64,000 bases of DNA from the human T2T-CHM13v2.0 reference genome, Homo sapiens, in the NCBI RefSeq assembly GCF_009914755.1, contig NC_060930.1; one strand, 5' to 3'. A model generated the notes under the pieces. That model worked only from the letters and a program-made list of their open reading frames with translations, made no database searches and was not told the DNA's origin. The stretch's first letter is position 1, and the number at the start of each line of letters is the position of its first letter. Below are positions 46,150-53,736 of this stretch, one piece after another. The translations under genes and the position numbers were made by a program.

Positions 46150-46336
46150 ATGTTTGCTACAATGAGACTCTGCCTCTAGCCTGCTAAGTGATTAGGATAG
46201 TATCATGGTGGAAGATCACTCATGTTTATTTATGACTGAATGATTTTATTGAGGATGGCGTAGAAACCCCTTACCGCCGCATGCACTTTCCTACTGCCAC
46301 GTTGCCACCAAATATGGGTTAAGGGCATTAGAAAAG
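46150..46336 (+). pseudogene. PCSK-like pseudo-exon 1 (degenerate signal peptide plus N-terminal prodomain)
   Basis: ATGs at 46150 and 46162 (MFATMRLCL..SLLS). TGA at 46241 falls at the conserved Trp. IEDGVETPYR starts at 46248 and VATKYGLRALEK spans 46301-46336, in different frames. No GT follows AAG at 46336. Confidence 0.7.
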
Positions 46337-46349
46337 AAATCCCACATGC

Positions 46350-46670
46350 AGCCGGGCATGGTGGCTCACGCCAGTAATCCCAACACTTTGGGAGGCCGAT
46401 GCAGGCGGATCACGAGGTCAAGAGATCGAGACCATCCTGGCTAACACAGTGAAACCTCGTCTCTACTAAAAATACAAAAAATTAGCCGGGTGTGGTGGCG
46501 GGCGCCTGTAGTCCCAGCTACTCAGAGGCTGAGCCGGGAGAATGACGTGAACCCGGGAGGCAGAGCTTGCAGTGAGCCGAGATGGCGCCACTGCACTCCA
46601 GCCTGGGCGACAGAGCGAGACTCCGTCTCAAAAAATAAAATAAAATAAAATAAATTAAAAAAATAAATAA
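46350..46670 (+). mobile_element. AluY
   Basis: Diagnostic gatcgagaccatcctggctaacac, cgtgaacccgggaggc.gagcttgcagtgag; 16-bp TSD aagaaa(t/c)cccacatgc at 46334-46349 and 46671-46686. Confidence 0.96.
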
Positions 46671-47346
46671 AAGAAACCCCACATGCTATGTCTGTTTGGA
46701 TTAACTTCACAAACAAAATACAGGGAATATAAAGAAATATGAATGAAGGAATTATAAACCAGGTATAAAACTAAGAAACTTAATTTTTAACTATGGCTTG
46801 GGTTATCTAAACGTGTACATACATATAATATATGTGATTATATATGTAAAATACATATATATATACACAAAAATACTGAGGATTTGGGGCATCTTAGCCT
46901 CTGAGCTACCAGTTCCTCTAATGTTCTAAAACATTTTTATTTGTTATTATACTTTTATATATTTAAACACACACATATATATGCATATATATATACGCGT
47001 ATATATATGCGTGTATATATATATACACGCATATATATGTGCAGAAATGCAGTCCAGTTTCATTCATTCACAATGGCAATAATATGGTCAGGAGGGGACA
47101 TTTGGTAGATTTATAGGACAAACGGATATTTGTGTTCTGAATTTTTTTTGTTTCCTTTGGTTTACCATGTTTTCAATTCACAACTTGCTTGAGCATTGCA
47201 CAGATTGGTAGAATATGATTTTATTAATAAAGCTCAATCTAAATGCCAGAAATTTAGGTTGTGGTATGTTACTTACTAGGCTTCTTATGTGGAACCAATG
47301 CTAAAAAAATAATTACATATGCACACTATAGTTCATATTTTAATAG

Positions 47347-47475
47347 GTCTTCACTGAGACCTACTATGAGCCCTAGAGGCCAGCTCAGTCACAATTTTTG
47401 AGCTGAAACTCCTTTTAAAGACACTGTACTTGTTTTTACTAAAGGTTAATGATAAAAAATAAGCAATTCTCAAAG
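47347..47475 (+). pseudogene. PCSK-like pseudo-exon 2 (middle prodomain)
   Basis: Acceptor atattttaatag|GTC; begins VFTETYYE (cf. furin IFGDYYHF); donor AAG|gtaagt at 47476, with an alternative AAG|gttaat at 47445. Four in-frame stops if read straight through. Confidence 0.55.
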
Positions 47476-48214
47476 GTAAGTAAAAACATTAAAAAATAAG
47501 TTATTTCATTTCAAAATATGTCCCTATTGGCTTTTACTCCTTTTCTATACAAACTTTTTGTGCAGATTTTGTAAAAGTCTTTTTATTCTTCTGAATATCA
47601 CATTTTTTCCATCTACATATTGACTAATATTGTTTTAGCTTTTTAGAAGTGAAAGAATTTTAAAGAAATGTATAATAAACCTGATCAGTAAAAAAACCTT
47701 TTCGCAGATATCTAAAAGCTAATAATTTAATCATGTGATCTTATGTCACCCCAGTTTCTACATGTATAAACAAATACAGCAATATCTTACAATTATGGTG
47801 TTTTAATATTGTGAAAGATTCTCAGTCATACAGCTTAATACTTTAATATCTGATGATGCAAACTTAGCTTGTAAGGATTTGCGCATCTTGCAATAAAGTT
47901 CAAGTGACTAAATTACTTTGTGTATTTACAAATGACACATGATGGTACATTTACCTCTTTACTGATGTTAGCTGATACATTAGTCAGATCTCTAGATTGT
48001 GAGAAAATTCTGAGGAAATATTGCCTGGGGTAAATTTTAATTTATGCAGGAAAAAATTAAATGTATGCTATTTTGCATAAAAGCGCAAGTGTGAGTAAAT
48101 TATGTATGGTAAATTCTCATTGCTGAAAGCTTCTTGCAAATGAAGAATAGTTTTATTTGTGTCTTACTAATATACCAACGTTTGGTTAGTTACATTTACT
48201 CCTGTTTGCTACAG

Positions 48215-51407: not shown

Positions 51408-51444
51408 TGATAGAGGGCGTTGGGCTTCACAGCACCAAGGGCAG
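51408..51444 (+). pseudogene. Candidate 37-nt linker micro-exon of the PCSK-like gene
   Basis: gtgttcttgcag|TGATAG...GGGCAG|gttggg. Its 3n+1 length joins the phase-1 donor at 48296 to the phase-2 acceptor at 53619 with no stop (VIEGVGLHSTKGR). The donor is weak. Confidence 0.4.
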
Positions 51445-51605
51445 GTTGGGGCTTTCCAGCCACCTCTGTGAATACCATGCTACCTTCTTCTTGGATGATC
51501 TGTCATTCCTTTATGTGGCCATCCAAAAGTTTTATTCTGGCATTTTTTCTGAAAACTCACAAGTAATAGTCATTTTTGGAGAAATAATGGTCCTTTTCTT
51601 AAAGA

Positions 51606-52111
51606 TGTGACCATGAGGTGGCAGTAGCACACAGCAAGCATTACTTGGGTGGTGCTTTGGTGGTTTTGTAAATGGGGGAGGTCCCTTATTGCAGGACGCC
51701 TTCCCAAAGGCAATAATTAGGGGGCCACCAAGCTAAAGGAGAGGGAGGCAAAAGGAACTCTTGGGAAGAGGAGGTTTGGAGAAGGAGGCGTCAGTCTAGA
51801 GGATGTTGCTCAGCAGCATGATGGAGAGACTCTGGGTGGGAAAGCTTTTAAGGGCAGCAGAAGCTTGGGGTCTGTTACAGACCCAGGGTTTATCTTATCT
51901 ACGGTTAGCAGATGTTAGGTGCAGTTTTGTGGGGTTGCGCAAAGCAGGCAGGCTCTAAATGGCCAAAAATCTACTTATTTGGACTACATTTGAAACAAAT
52001 GGATGTGCAAAAATGTGCATTTGTTGCCAGTGGGCTTTGGAGCTAGTGGTTCCACCCTGCTGTGAAGAAGTAAACACTGTAGGACCAATGTGCACAGACC
52101 ATCTTATAACA
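51606..52111 (-). mobile_element. Solo ERV LTR (family uncertain, LTR41-like)
   Basis: About 500-bp GC-richer block; minus strand begins TGTTATAAGATGG and contains gccatttagagcctgcctgctttgc..gataagataaaccc. Confidence 0.5.
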
Positions 52112-53618
52112 ACTAGGCCTCACTGGTTTTGTTTGTGTATGTGTGTTTTGTCATTATAACATACTACAAGTCTACAGAAAATATATACATAAATGCTTGT
52201 AGATACACTTATGTACAAATATGCGTAGAAAATAGACACATATAATGAATAGCATGTACGTACCATCTAGATTTGTTAGATTTATAATTTTGTCGTAAAT
52301 GCTCCAAGTTTTTTAAAGGACTACATTACTAGAGTTGAATTCCTCTATACCCCTTCCTAGAACGATTCTCTTCCCTGCCTTCTTCAGAGGCCTTCCTATG
52401 TGTGCTTAGATTTGTATCCTAAATACGTATCATTTTAAAAAGATGTATAAAATTGTTTTGGGATGATTTAAAACTTTATATAAATGATATCATACTGTAC
52501 ATAGCCTTCTGCACTCTGCTTACAATTTTTGAACTGATTGAAATGTATTCAGTTGATACTTGTAGATCACATTTATTTACTGTTGCTGCTAAATAACATT
52601 TTACTGTGTGAATATAAAATGATTTAAACAATTTCATATTAATGGCGATTTAATTTGTTTCCAGCTTTTTATTTTTGCAAATGATGCTGTAGAGAACATT
52701 TCTGAACACGTCTTCTTATGCAAATGCTTCTACTTGGCTGTTTCATTGAGAGATTCTAGAAGCAAATCAGCAAATAATTCCCAAATAACCTATTGGCACA
52801 GGTCTAGAGTTATATCAAAATTAGATATAATTCCTATTCTTGATAAATTTATACTCTTAGTTTATAAGCTTTGTGTATACTTACAAATAAGAATTTTTCT
52901 ACTATTTGGTAGTGTTTATCTCACCTGTCATTTTACTAAGTTTACGTGTATTTCTAAGACAGATATGTCATTAATGTCATTGCTTGATTATTTTCTCCAA
53001 TACTTGGTTTTGGTAATCCCCTAAGATGCAAAGCAGATGTGACTATCTGAATTACAGTTTTGTCTTTAGGAGAACATTGTGTTAAAAAGCTTCCCTGAAT
53101 TCCTAGTGCTGTCACTTTCTCAGTTAATGATTTATTAAATACATCAGAGCAATTAGAAAAATGAGATTTTTAAAAAATGTTTTCCACTACAGCTCAAGTA
53201 ATTTAAATCACTCTTCTAAGAGATGTATGTTGGGAGAAGTCATAAGTGGAATGCACATGACATAGTAAGGATAATGATCAATGTAAGCAGATAACTTCTA
53301 ATGGGAAATATATACATAGCTTTGGAATTACATTCCAAATCACTTGTTTTCCCAGCATTTATTGTATGCAACAAACACATAGAAAGTGGTTAGCTGAAAC
53401 AGGTAGTTTGGAAATATTTTAACATTTTTATCTAAACAAATGACAGATTTTTTTTAAATGAAAAATGCTAAGTATAATAAAAGTGTATATTTATGTTCTC
53501 GGCAGCCAAATGTGCTTTTTAATGGAATTTAAATAAATGGAATTTTTATGACAAAAAAAGCAACAGTAAAAGCAGTGATTATGTTTTTCATAGTTCATTT
53601 GCCTTCTTTGCCCTGCAG

Positions 53619-53736
53619 ACCTTGTGTGGAGGAAAATGAGATCCCGAGTGAAGTCTACAATGTCATTGACTCTGAAGAAGGACTCAGAGACCCATTGGTG
53701 TTTAATGACCCTTACTGGCCTATGCAATGGAAACTG
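53619..53736 (+). pseudogene. PCSK-like pseudo-exon (acidic linker plus catalytic-domain start FNDPYWPMQWKL)
   Basis: Strong acceptor ccttctttgccctgcag|A; open frame PCVEENEIPSEVYNVIDSEEGLRDPLVFNDPYWPMQWKL (inside ORF 53548-53742); phase-0 donor CTG|gtatga where furin/PCSK1 have an intron after WYL. Confidence 0.88.

What the first reader, a model, noticed from the sequence alone, without database searches (positions are those of the whole stretch)
46150..53736. Fossil of an additional proprotein convertase: candidate unitary PCSK-like pseudogene
Seen: four colinear + strand segments with splice-site boundaries translate to IEDGVETPYR/VATKYGLRALEK, VFTETYYE, VKWMEHQTAHYRDK* and FNDPYWPMQWKL. 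Known: these match the kexin/furin prodomain and catalytic N-terminus (furin IPGGPAVANSVARKHGFLNLGQ | IFGDYYHF | VQWLEQQVAKRRTKR..PTDPKFPQQWYL|), including its phase-0 intron positions. Inference: retained introns exclude a retrocopy. Low identity to PCSK1, PCSK2, FURIN and PCSK4-7 as I recall them argues against a recent duplicate. This looks like an old, separate convertase paralogue lost in this lineage, implying a substrate-processing pathway that other vertebrates may still have. The ORF track shows only the last exon. I cannot tell whether the locus is already annotated.
Basis: partly seen in the sequence, partly recalled or inferred. Interest (0 to 1): 0.95.

Follow-up and report, generated by a model that had tools for sequence, protein, structure and literature searches.

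The report
Fossil of a lost eighth convertase
This stretch of human chromosome 6 holds the broken remains of a furin-like protease gene that sharks, ray-finned fishes, lungfish and coelacanth still have intact, and two of its dead exons are kept almost unchanged and now serve as exons of a brain long non-coding RNA upstream of POU3F2.

Summary
Its third and fourth segments are real; the first two are not above chance.

- **Homology.** Window 48215-48296 and 53619-53736 match a coelacanth 'neuroendocrine convertase 1-like' protein. They also match full-length fish convertases auto-named 'PC3-like endoprotease variant B'. Genome-wide E is 1e-12 for segment 4.
- **A separate lineage.** The fish proteins keep pro-domain, catalytic residues and P-domain. 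They form their own clade, outside human PCSK1, 2, 4, 5, 6, 7 and FURIN.
- **Distribution.** No tetrapod is among the best 120 hits.
- **Breaks in the human copy.** A TAA replaces the last Arg of the RDKR cleavage site. One base is missing across the exon junction. The catalytic-serine exon lies 564 kb downstream with four stops and Ser changed to Pro.
- **Synteny.** A fish gene model fuses the convertase to pou3f2. Human POU3F2 lies downstream on the same strand.
- **Uneven decay.** Segment 4 is 83% identical to coelacanth and 95-98% to other mammals, and conservation runs into the flanks. Both segments are exons of lncRNA LOC101927314.

I infer non-coding constraint on an exonic remnant.

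The parts
46248..46336 (+). Unproven.
   Evidence: Translations. Not among the 8 best hits of the exon A HMM. With orthologue N-termini it ranks 1 only for sterlet (E 0.97), otherwise 50th or lower. No donor site after it.
46346..46680 (+). Alu-type insertion directly after segment 1, flanked by a 16-nt near-identical direct repeat (15 of 16 bases by my reading).
   Evidence: Sequence: the repeat precedes 46346 and recurs at about 46672-46688. The hub's table lists 46346-46680 as masked. 'Alu' is my reading of the sequence, not a tool call.
47347..47428 (+). Possible exon B remnant. Unproven.
   Evidence: Segment 2 is never hit by orthologue queries. FKDTV matches sterlet and bowfin HYTFKDT(V) at E 42-136.
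48215..48296 (+). Exon remnant C1: end of the pro-domain with the autocleavage site (VKWMEHQTAHYRDK*APVPKLVDRTSH). TAA at 48257-48259 stands where the orthologues have the last Arg of RDKR. It is exon 4 of lncRNA LOC101927314.
   Evidence: tblastn gar 94-120, 63% identity, E 1.3e-5 in 104 kb. Genome-wide E 0.3 (gar) and 0.076 (coelacanth). RDKR is present in 9 of 17 family members examined. Exon coordinates come from the hub's RefSeq table.
53619..53736 (+). Exon remnant C2: N-terminus of the mature enzyme (...EVYNVIDSEEGLRDPLVFNDPYWPMQWKL), stop-free, ending at the ancestral GT donor. It is the start of the last exon of LOC101927314. One further part lies OUTSIDE the window and cannot be listed as its own row: the decayed catalytic-serine exon at chr6:99445721-99445855 (+), which would be window place 617721-617855.
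   Evidence: **C2**
-.
- Genome-wide E 2.1e-12 and 1.2e-12.
- 83% identical to bowfin and coelacanth over 35 residues.
- 95-98% identical to predicted proteins of five mammals, 86% macaw, 85% alligator.

**Outside part (Ser exon)**
- Genome-wide E 0.015, gar residues 393-438, four stops, GTP for GTS.
- 42-51% identical to family members.
- Only 8-12 of 33 residues match human paralogues.
53548..53838 (+). Conserved block around C2 that extends beyond both exon borders.
   Evidence: Unnamed-source ORFs P0007 and P0011 align to 53548-53799 at 93% and 89%. P0012 aligns to 53629-53838 at 61%, through human stop codons. Seal P0005 matches from 53593.
53737..54849 (+). Rest of the lncRNA's terminal exon, which reads through the old donor. 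AATAAA lies at 54825-54830, 19 nt before the annotated 3' end.
   Evidence: Hub's RefSeq table for the exon end. Sequence.

Best explanation
The locus is the unprocessed, unitary remnant of an eighth kexin/furin-type proprotein convertase gene of jawed vertebrates. The gene lay upstream of POU3F2 on the same strand. It is still intact in cartilaginous fishes, ray-finned fishes and lungfish, and at least partly so in coelacanth. It appears to be absent as a gene from tetrapods.

In humans it cannot make a protease:
- The autocleavage site ends in a stop.
- The frame is off by one base across the next junction.
- The catalytic-serine exon, 564 kb downstream, carries four stops and has lost the serine.
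- Exons D to G and the P-domain were not found.

Two of the dead exons have not decayed. They keep their ancestral splice sites, are spliced into the brain lncRNA LOC101927314, and are nearly invariant from coelacanth to human.

Inferred, not shown: these two pieces carry a non-coding function. It is either a cis-regulatory element of the POU3F2 regulatory block or an RNA/splicing element of the lncRNA. It already overlapped the coding exon before the gene died, and it is why the exon outlived the gene. That makes it an 'exonic remnant'.
For: **Homology**
- Segment 4 retrieves 13 proteins. Among them is coelacanth P0014, whose sequence continues into the catalytic exon with DDG.
- P0014 in turn retrieves 24 full-length fish convertases.
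- Genome-wide E values are 1e-12 for C2, 0.08-0.3 for C1 and 0.015 for the Ser exon. All three lie on one strand in gene order.

**The family is a working convertase**
- Gar Pfam scores are S8 3e-49, P-domain 8e-21 and pro-domain 3e-16.
- The Asp, His, Asn and Ser motifs are kept in 16 of 16 long members.

**Separate lineage**
- The family forms its own clade: SH-aLRT 96 in the 74-row tree and 97 in the 146-row tree.
- It sits outside a 98-supported clade holding human PCSK1, 2, 4, 5, 6 and FURIN. PCSK7 falls elsewhere.
- The AU test rejects union with PCSK1 (p 7e-7).

**Loss in tetrapods**
- None of the 120 best hits is a tetrapod.
- Tetrapod hits are short or chimeric models holding only these exons.

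**Disablements**. The gar and coelacanth stretches are 67 codons (201 nt). The two human exons sum to 200 nt.

**Synteny**
- The 88-residue tail of the fused Nibea model P0100 is 93% identical to chr6:100010297-100010572 (+).
- It is 82-84% identical to the other three POU3F loci.

**Differential constraint**
- C2 is 83% identical to coelacanth with no stop. The Ser exon is 42-47% identical with four stops.
- The 21-residue stretch YNVIDSEEGLRDPLVFNDPYW is identical in human, seal, narwhal, dog, squirrel, macaw and coelacanth. It varies among the working fish genes.
- Conservation runs past both exon borders.
- Macaw matches human C1 at 67% in a frame other than the convertase frame.

**Context**: LOC101927314 is reported to hold 42 ultraconserved elements (PMC11276968, passage read).
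Against: - Pfam models do not find the chr6 pieces. This holds both on the pieces themselves and genome-wide for PF16470, PF00082 and PF01483.
- Exons A and B are not demonstrable.
- Exons D-G and the P-domain were not found. I searched the window plus 40 kb downstream, 43.5 kb around the Ser exon, and genome-wide with P0204 and P0014. About 490 kb between the two sampled regions was never read locally.
- Synteny rests on one fused gene model from one fish.
- Absence from tetrapods rests on annotated proteins in one database. Amphibians and most reptiles did not appear at all, so the time of loss is open.
- I had no DNA of other vertebrates. The claim of nucleotide-level rather than codon-level constraint rests on translated comparisons only.
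- No enhancer or RNA function was tested.
Confidence: 0.88

Rival explanations
1. Plain fossil with no present function: the two exons are simply decaying slowly in a low-mutation region, and the lncRNA uses their old splice sites by accident.
For: Pseudogene exons are often picked up by non-coding transcripts. The Ser exon of the same gene is still recognisable after a very long time, so decay here may be slow in general.
Against: - C2 is 83% identical to coelacanth and 86% to macaw with no stop. The Ser exon of the same gene has four stops and 42-47% identity.
- A 21-residue stretch is invariant in seven sarcopterygian sequences but varies in the working fish genes.
- Conservation crosses the exon borders.
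Confidence: 0.07
2. The conserved piece still codes: a short protein or peptide containing ...YNVIDSEEGLRDPLVFNDPYW... is made in tetrapods from this transcript or another.
For: The frame of C2 is open for 69 codons in human. Automatic pipelines predict proteins containing it in seal, dog, squirrel, macaw and alligator. A stop-free frame kept over about 400 My is what a coding exon looks like.
Against: - In the annotated spliced RNA the convertase frame stops at 48257, and the junction shifts the frame by one base.
- The only ATG of the 69-codon frame (53548) lies upstream of the exon start at 53619.
- The predicted tetrapod proteins share nothing outside these exons and are chimeric.
- The W of the QW(E/K)L motif, invariant in all human paralogues, is lost in macaw and alligator, while the non-catalytic linker is kept.
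- Conservation continues through human stop codons downstream.
Confidence: 0.04
3. Chance resemblance, or a recent duplicate or retrocopy of one of the seven known human kexin-type genes.
For: - Each piece alone is short.
- Pfam finds nothing.
- Segment 4 scored against paralogue profiles alone (20.6 bits) would be expected a few times per genome by my scaling.
Against: - Genome-wide E is 1e-12 with orthologues.
- Three colinear pieces lie on one strand.
- Introns are retained.
- Human PCSK1 and PCSK6 exon C queries do not find the locus.
- The Ser-exon remnant matches the fish family better than any human paralogue.
Confidence: 0.01

Closest known systems
Fish proteins auto-named 'PC3-like endoprotease variant B' (also NECA endoprotease, neuroendocrine convertase 1/2-like, PCSK4-like, furin-like protease kpc-1, endoprotease bli-like), e.g. 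spotted gar W5NKH4_LEPOC
   Same: Orthologous to the human remnants. They share the signature FNDP[YL]WP[ML]QWEL (human FNDPYWPMQWKL), the RDKR site, and the long linker between the cleavage site and FNDP. One fused model shows adjacency to pou3f2.
   Different: They are intact: 720-900 aa with pro-domain, catalytic residues and P-domain. The human copy is broken and mostly gone. The names are automatic. I found no paper that characterises the family. A cichlid survey mentions an unexplained 'PCSK-like gene' lacking FU domains, which may be a member (PMC4992253, passage read).
Human PCSK7 and PCSK1 (kexin-type proprotein convertases, MEROPS S8B by recall)
   Same: Same domain plan and the same exon borders: before V.W..Q, after QW.L, and before the Ser exon.
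   Different: - The lineage is separate in both trees.
- Union with PCSK1 is rejected (p 7e-7). Union with PCSK7 is only weakly disfavoured (p 0.033).
- The stretch from V.W to QW.L is 67 residues in two exons here, against 30-38 residues in one exon in FURIN and PCSK1, 4, 5, 6, and within a larger exon in PCSK7.
Exonic remnants / regulatory coding exons in genomic regulatory blocks (Dong et al. 2009, PMC2831330; abstract and passages read)
   Same: An exon survives the disappearance of its host gene next to a developmental regulator, with conservation that spills into the flanking intron.
   Different: Their 38 cases come from gene loss after the teleost genome duplication. This case is a loss on the tetrapod side, seen in human. 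The paper's main text names neither POU3F2 nor a convertase. Enhancer activity is untested here.
Human unitary pseudogenes (e.g. GULOP; recalled, no call)
   Same: A single-copy gene that is functional in other vertebrates and disabled in place, with introns kept.
   Different: It is far older than the usual primate examples and is scattered over at least 570 kb. Part of it is under strong constraint rather than decaying.

Membership tests
Kexin/furin-type proprotein convertase (ancestral gene, judged on its fish orthologues) | S8 pro-domain ending in a basic autocleavage site | tested here: met
   Gar PF16470 E 3.4e-16. RDKR is present in 9 of 17 members examined and REKR in one more. Human keeps YRDK followed by TAA.
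Kexin/furin-type proprotein convertase (ancestral gene, judged on its fish orthologues) | Subtilase catalytic Asp, His, Ser and oxyanion Asn | tested here: met
   Gar PF00082 E 3.3e-49. All four motifs are present in 16 of 16 members long enough to show them.
Kexin/furin-type proprotein convertase (ancestral gene, judged on its fish orthologues) | P (homo-B) domain after the catalytic domain | tested here: met
   Gar PF01483 E 7.8e-21. It is precomputed on most family rows.
Functional human convertase gene | Open reading frame with catalytic residues | tested here: not met
   - Stop at 48257-48259.
- The two exons sum to 200 nt against 201 nt in the orthologues.
- The Ser exon has four stops and reads GTP for GTS.
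- Exons D-G and the P-domain were not found.
One of PCSK1, PCSK2, FURIN, PCSK4, PCSK5, PCSK6, PCSK7 | Groups with that gene's vertebrate orthologues in a tree | tested here: not met
   The family is its own clade (96 and 97). It lies outside the 98-supported clade with PCSK1, 2, 4, 5, 6 and FURIN, and PCSK7 pairs with P0248. AU p is 7e-7 against PCSK1 and 0.033 against PCSK7. The groups were named after the tree was seen. The human rows are partial, built from exons only.
Unitary (unprocessed) pseudogene | Introns retained and no parent copy in the same genome | tested here: met
   The pieces are 5.3 kb and 564 kb apart with splice sites. Segment 4 finds only itself in the genome. Paralogue queries do not find it.
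Unitary (unprocessed) pseudogene | Functional orthologue in other species at the syntenic place | tested here: inconclusive
   Intact orthologues are shown. Synteny rests on one fused convertase-pou3f2 model (P0100). No fish genomic DNA was available to me.
Exonic remnant / regulatory coding exon | Exon conserved well beyond the rest of the dead gene, with conservation entering the flanks | tested here: met
   C2 is 83% identical to coelacanth, against 42-47% for the Ser exon. Flank conservation covers 53548-53838.
Exonic remnant / regulatory coding exon | Cis-regulatory activity on a neighbouring developmental gene | not testable with these tools
   Context only. The host lncRNA is reported to carry 42 ultraconserved elements (PMC11276968), and POU3F2 lies 1.13 Mb downstream of C2.

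The most novel reading that the evidence does not exclude
The convertase-POU3F linkage predates the two vertebrate genome duplications. Parts of the convertase gene's exons were already long-range regulatory elements of the POU3F gene. When the protease died, in tetrapods at POU3F2 and perhaps earlier in bony vertebrates at POU3F3, exactly those exons were frozen in place.

On this reading, window 53548-53838 is a POU3F2 brain enhancer or an essential lncRNA element written in former protein-coding sequence. The stop-free exon-G-like piece 368 kb upstream of POU3F3 (chr2:104949415-104949651) would be its sister fossil.
Probability: 0.3. Interest if true: 0.75.

Novelty: new member of a known kind. 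Interest (0 to 1): 0.62.

Why it matters
- **The convertase family count.** By my recall, textbooks count seven kexin-type convertases in vertebrates. This locus shows that jawed vertebrates began with at least one more. Fishes still use it, and I found no paper that characterises it. Our own genome keeps its fossil. That points to an unstudied protease, with unknown substrates, in fish models.
- **A dated gene loss.** It gives a gene loss on the way to tetrapods.
- **Origin of deeply conserved sequence.** It gives a concrete origin for two deeply conserved pieces in the gene desert upstream of POU3F2: they were once coding exons. This is a clean human example of an exon outliving its gene. 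Variants in such pieces should be read as regulatory or RNA changes, not coding ones.
- **Disease context.** A search listing (PMC8455222, abstract start only) places the variant rs9320913 in a gene desert. I did not map that variant relative to this window.

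Tried and rejected
**Searches with the pieces or with human paralogues that found nothing**
- PDB sequence search with segment 4: 0 hits at E up to 10.
- Pfam on the four pieces: only PF16361, E 0.062.
- Whole-genome Pfam searches: PF16470 gave 14 matches, PF00082 31 and PF01483 15. 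All lie in known subtilase genes and none on chr6.
- Segment 4 against the genome: itself only.
- PCSK1 and PCSK6 exon C against the genome: 3 and 4 matches, none on chr6.
- My HMMs of exons D, E1, E2, F, G and H from human paralogues, run against 8602 fragments of window plus 40 kb: best E 1.1 or worse.

**Searches for further remnants on chr6**
- P0204 (a 264-aa family member) against the genome: 29 matches, none on chr6. It did not even find the Ser exon.
- Weak candidate: SSFCGVGV...RIGQG at chr6:98926121-98926189, E about 5.
- Weak candidate: CCWTPEKRG at chr6:99429338-99429364, E 5-12, with no similarity in the flanks.
- I treat both as chance.

**Other**
- Rfam on 45000-56000: nothing.
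- Protein atlas with the gar N-terminus: no useful lead.
- Literature searches: 'PC3-like endoprotease variant B' gave 2 jellyfish papers. 'PCSK10' gave 1 unrelated paper. 'proprotein convertase' with 'lost in tetrapods' gave 1 unrelated paper. 'proprotein convertase' with 'unitary pseudogene' gave 3 unrelated papers.
- No structure or complex prediction was run. None was needed.

Full report
**What is in the window**

- Segment 1 is two short pieces in different frames, 46248-46277 and 46301-46336. They are separated by 23 nt and followed at once by an Alu-type insertion with a target-site repeat.
- Segment 2 (47347-47370) follows an AG and runs into a stop after nine codons.
- Segment 3 is the 82-nt stretch 48215-48296, bounded by AG and GTAAGT.
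- Segment 4 is 53619-53736, bounded by a strong acceptor and GTATGA.
- The hub's RefSeq table shows that 48215-48296 and 53619-54849 are exons 4 and 5 of lncRNA LOC101927314. An AATAAA lies 19 nt before its 3' end.

**First tests, with known human convertases only**

Pfam and PDB searches on the pieces gave almost nothing. Whole-genome searches with the three convertase Pfam models found the exons of PCSK1, 2, 4, 5, 6, 7 and FURIN but nothing on chr6.

I read the exon structure of the human paralogues from the genome and built one HMM per exon.
- The exon C model (V.W..QQ...R.KR...DP.W..QWYL) put segment 4 first among 5334 six-frame fragments of the window (E 1.1e-4, 20.6 bits). Segment 3 came third (E 0.72).
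- The models of exons A and B did not find segments 1 and 2 among their 8 best hits.
- Models of the catalytic exons found nothing in the window plus 40 kb downstream.

At that stage the case was suggestive only. By my scaling, a 20-bit hit is expected a few times per human genome.

**The decisive result**

Searching the large protein collection with the 40 residues of segment 4 returned 13 proteins:
- predicted proteins of elephant seal, narwhal, ground squirrel, dog and golden jackal, 95-98% identical;
- macaw, 86%;
- alligator, 85%;
- a coelacanth protein named 'neuroendocrine convertase 1-like', 81%;
- five unnamed ORFs.

The coelacanth sequence reads VRWVKHQTAHYRDKR-AAMLKWNDRISHE-IVSREIRIPVDIYNVIDSEEGLRDPLVFNDPYWPMQWEL. 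It then continues into the first catalytic exon, with VIDDG.

Using the coelacanth piece as query gave 26 proteins.
- 24 are full-length fish convertases of 600-900 aa with pro-domain, S8 and P-domain. The species are bowfin, spotted gar, alligator gar, sterlet, paddlefish, lungfish, skate, ray, basking shark and many percomorphs.
- The other two are chimeric mammal models.

A search with the gar protein listed the best 120 of 3365 hits. All named rows are fishes apart from one arthropod, two rows are unnamed, and none is a tetrapod.

Gar scores S8 3e-49, P-domain 8e-21 and pro-domain 3e-16. The Asp, His, Asn and Ser motifs are kept in 16 of 16 members long enough to show them.

**Back to the human genome with the orthologues**

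Gar against the whole assembly gave 56 matches.
- 52 lie in the seven known genes.
- Three lie on chr6, all on the + strand and in gene order: segment 3 (E 0.3), segment 4 (E 2.1e-12), and a new one at chr6:99445718-99445855 (E 0.015).
- One lies on chr2 (see 'Seen in passing').

Coelacanth gave E 0.076 and 1.2e-12 for segments 3 and 4.

The new piece lies 564 kb downstream, directly after a pyrimidine tract and AG. It translates as P*MTSTNIDKGCIARFSGTPRAPPMEVGVLA*VQAAE*KRV*RDI, against gar [45 protein letters not shown].
- This is the catalytic-serine exon, with four stops and the serine changed to proline.
- It matches the fish family at 42-51%. It matches the same exon of six human paralogues at only 8-12 of 33 residues.

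The two human exons sum to 200 nt where gar and coelacanth have 67 codons, so one base is missing across the junction.

Nothing else of the gene was found in the 104 kb and 43.5 kb that I could read, nor genome-wide. About 490 kb in between was not read. Even with orthologue N-termini, segments 1 and 2 stay at noise level. They sit where exons A and B should be, but I cannot call them real.

**Which convertase?**

I took 140 catalytic-plus-P-domain stretches from family members and from the 150 best unnamed representatives. I added partial human rows made from exon peptides. The unnamed representatives were labelled by identity to human exons.
- In a 146-row FastTree and a 74-row IQ-TREE quick tree, the 11 family rows form one clade (97 and 96).
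- Human PCSK1, PCSK2, FURIN+PCSK4 and PCSK5+PCSK6 sit with their own representatives, inside a 98-supported clade that excludes the family.
- PCSK7 pairs with another representative elsewhere.
- Forcing the family together with vertebrate PCSK1 costs 186 log-likelihood units (AU p 7e-7).
- Forcing it together with PCSK7 costs 60 units (p 0.033), so a distant tie to PCSK7 is not firmly excluded.
- The test groups were chosen after seeing the tree, and the human rows are partial.

The family also differs in gene structure. The V.W-to-QW.L stretch is 67 residues in two exons. It is 30-38 residues in one exon in FURIN and PCSK1, 4, 5, 6, and part of a larger exon in PCSK7.

**Synteny**

One family member, the Nibea albiflora model P0100, carries a homeodomain at its end. 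Its last 88 residues hit human chr6:100010297-100010572 (+) at 93% identity. They hit the loci on chr2, X and 1 at 82-84%. By position and recall, the chr6 hit is POU3F2 and the others are POU3F3, POU3F4 and POU3F1. A model can fuse two genes only if they are neighbours on one strand. The human order is the same: convertase remnants, then POU3F2, all on the + strand.

**Uneven decay**

The Ser exon looks like an old pseudogene. Segment 4 does not.
- It is stop-free and 83% identical to bowfin and coelacanth.
- The 21 residues YNVIDSEEGLRDPLVFNDPYW are identical in human, seal, narwhal, dog, squirrel, macaw and coelacanth. Working fish genes vary there: gar YNVINSEEGLEDPLV, lungfish YSIMNSDEGLKDPVV, tarpon KDVLDTERGESELLH.
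- Macaw and alligator have lost the W of QW.L, which is invariant in the five human paralogues aligned. They keep the linker.
- Conservation runs past the exon. Unnamed ORFs align to 53548-53799 at 89-93%. One aligns to 53629-53838 at 61%, straight through human stops.
- Macaw matches human segment 3 at 67% in a frame other than the convertase frame.

These are signs of constraint on the DNA or RNA rather than on a protein.

A 2024 survey reports 42 ultraconserved elements in LOC101927314 and calls it a brain-specific lncRNA (PMC11276968, passage read). I did not check whether any of them overlaps these coordinates, and its supplements were not read.

Exons that outlive their host gene inside a regulatory block are a described class (Dong et al. 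2009, PMC2831330, abstract and passages). That paper's main text names neither POU3F2 nor a convertase.

**Verdict**

Shown:
- homology, a separate intact fish family, the disabling changes, and the scattered gene-order remnants;
- the identity of two remnants with lncRNA exons;
- the contrast in conservation.

Inferred:
- loss in or before the amniote ancestor;
- a present non-coding function for 48215-48296 and 53548-53838.

Not in print as far as these searches show: searches found no paper that describes this convertase family or its human pseudogene. A cichlid survey mentions an unexplained 'PCSK-like gene'. I could not consult GENCODE pseudogene annotation.

**Seen in passing**

The one non-chr6, non-PCSK hit of gar is chr2:104949415-104949612.
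- It starts directly after a pyrimidine tract and AG, and its match extends to 104949651 as a stop-free 79-codon stretch.
- It aligns with exon G, GNIFTWALGSGG against GNIFVWASGNGG.
- It lies 368 kb upstream of the chr2 POU3F locus on the same strand.
- Its five best PDB hits are furin, but only at E 0.18, and Pfam is silent.
- Cartilaginous fishes have two paralogues of the family (and contigs).

A second fossil beside POU3F3 is therefore possible but unproven.

Noticed in passing
L058:1915-2151 (chr2:104949415-104949651, + strand): A stop-free 79-codon piece directly after a pyrimidine tract and AG. It aligns with convertase exon G (GNIFTWALGSGG against GNIFVWASGNGG, with the oxyanion Asn changed to Ser). 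It lies 368 kb upstream of the chr2 POU3F locus on the same strand, mirroring the chr6 arrangement. Genome-wide E is only 1.7. The top five PDB hits are furin at E 0.18, and Pfam finds none. No other exon turned up within 20 kb either side. It may be a second fossil, of the paralogue that sharks keep.
   Followed up: partly
Tree rows; contigs listed: Cartilaginous fishes seem to have two paralogues of the new family. Basking shark, whale shark and Amblyraja form one group. Rhinoraja groups with bony fishes. Narcine and Heptranchias each have models on two different contigs. The human remnant has the bony-fish type signature (FNDPYWP.QW.L).
   Followed up: partly
chr11:117150874-117151053 (+) and chr11:117224133-117224312 (-), outside the window: The P-domain Pfam model hits two places on chr11 with identical scores on opposite strands, and likewise 117151823 and 117223262. 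This suggests an inverted duplicate of part of the PCSK7 region in this assembly.
   Followed up: no
window 46327-46342 and about 46672-46688: A 16-nt direct repeat (15 of 16 identical) flanks the masked 46346-46680 element.
   Followed up: no
chr6:99429338-99429364 (+), in L057: CCWTPEKRG matches the family-specific CCWGP(K/R)DNG of exon F, 16 kb upstream of the Ser-exon remnant and in gene order. E is 5-12 and the flanks show no similarity. Probably chance.
   Followed up: yes
P0006 (narwhal), P0009 and P0010 (dog, jackal), P0005 (seal), P0013 (macaw): Automatic gene models in tetrapods graft the conserved exon onto unrelated sequence. Narwhal adds a cyclophilin plus RRM part, and dog adds a GC-rich N-terminus. 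The macaw model keeps a signal peptide and an exon-A-like HIFYTVEIDGYSNTASFLAKQHGMQFISK. Exon A may therefore be better preserved in birds than in human.
   Followed up: partly
window 14150-15008: RefSeq lists a functional enhancer here, according to the hub's table. I did not examine it.
   Followed up: no
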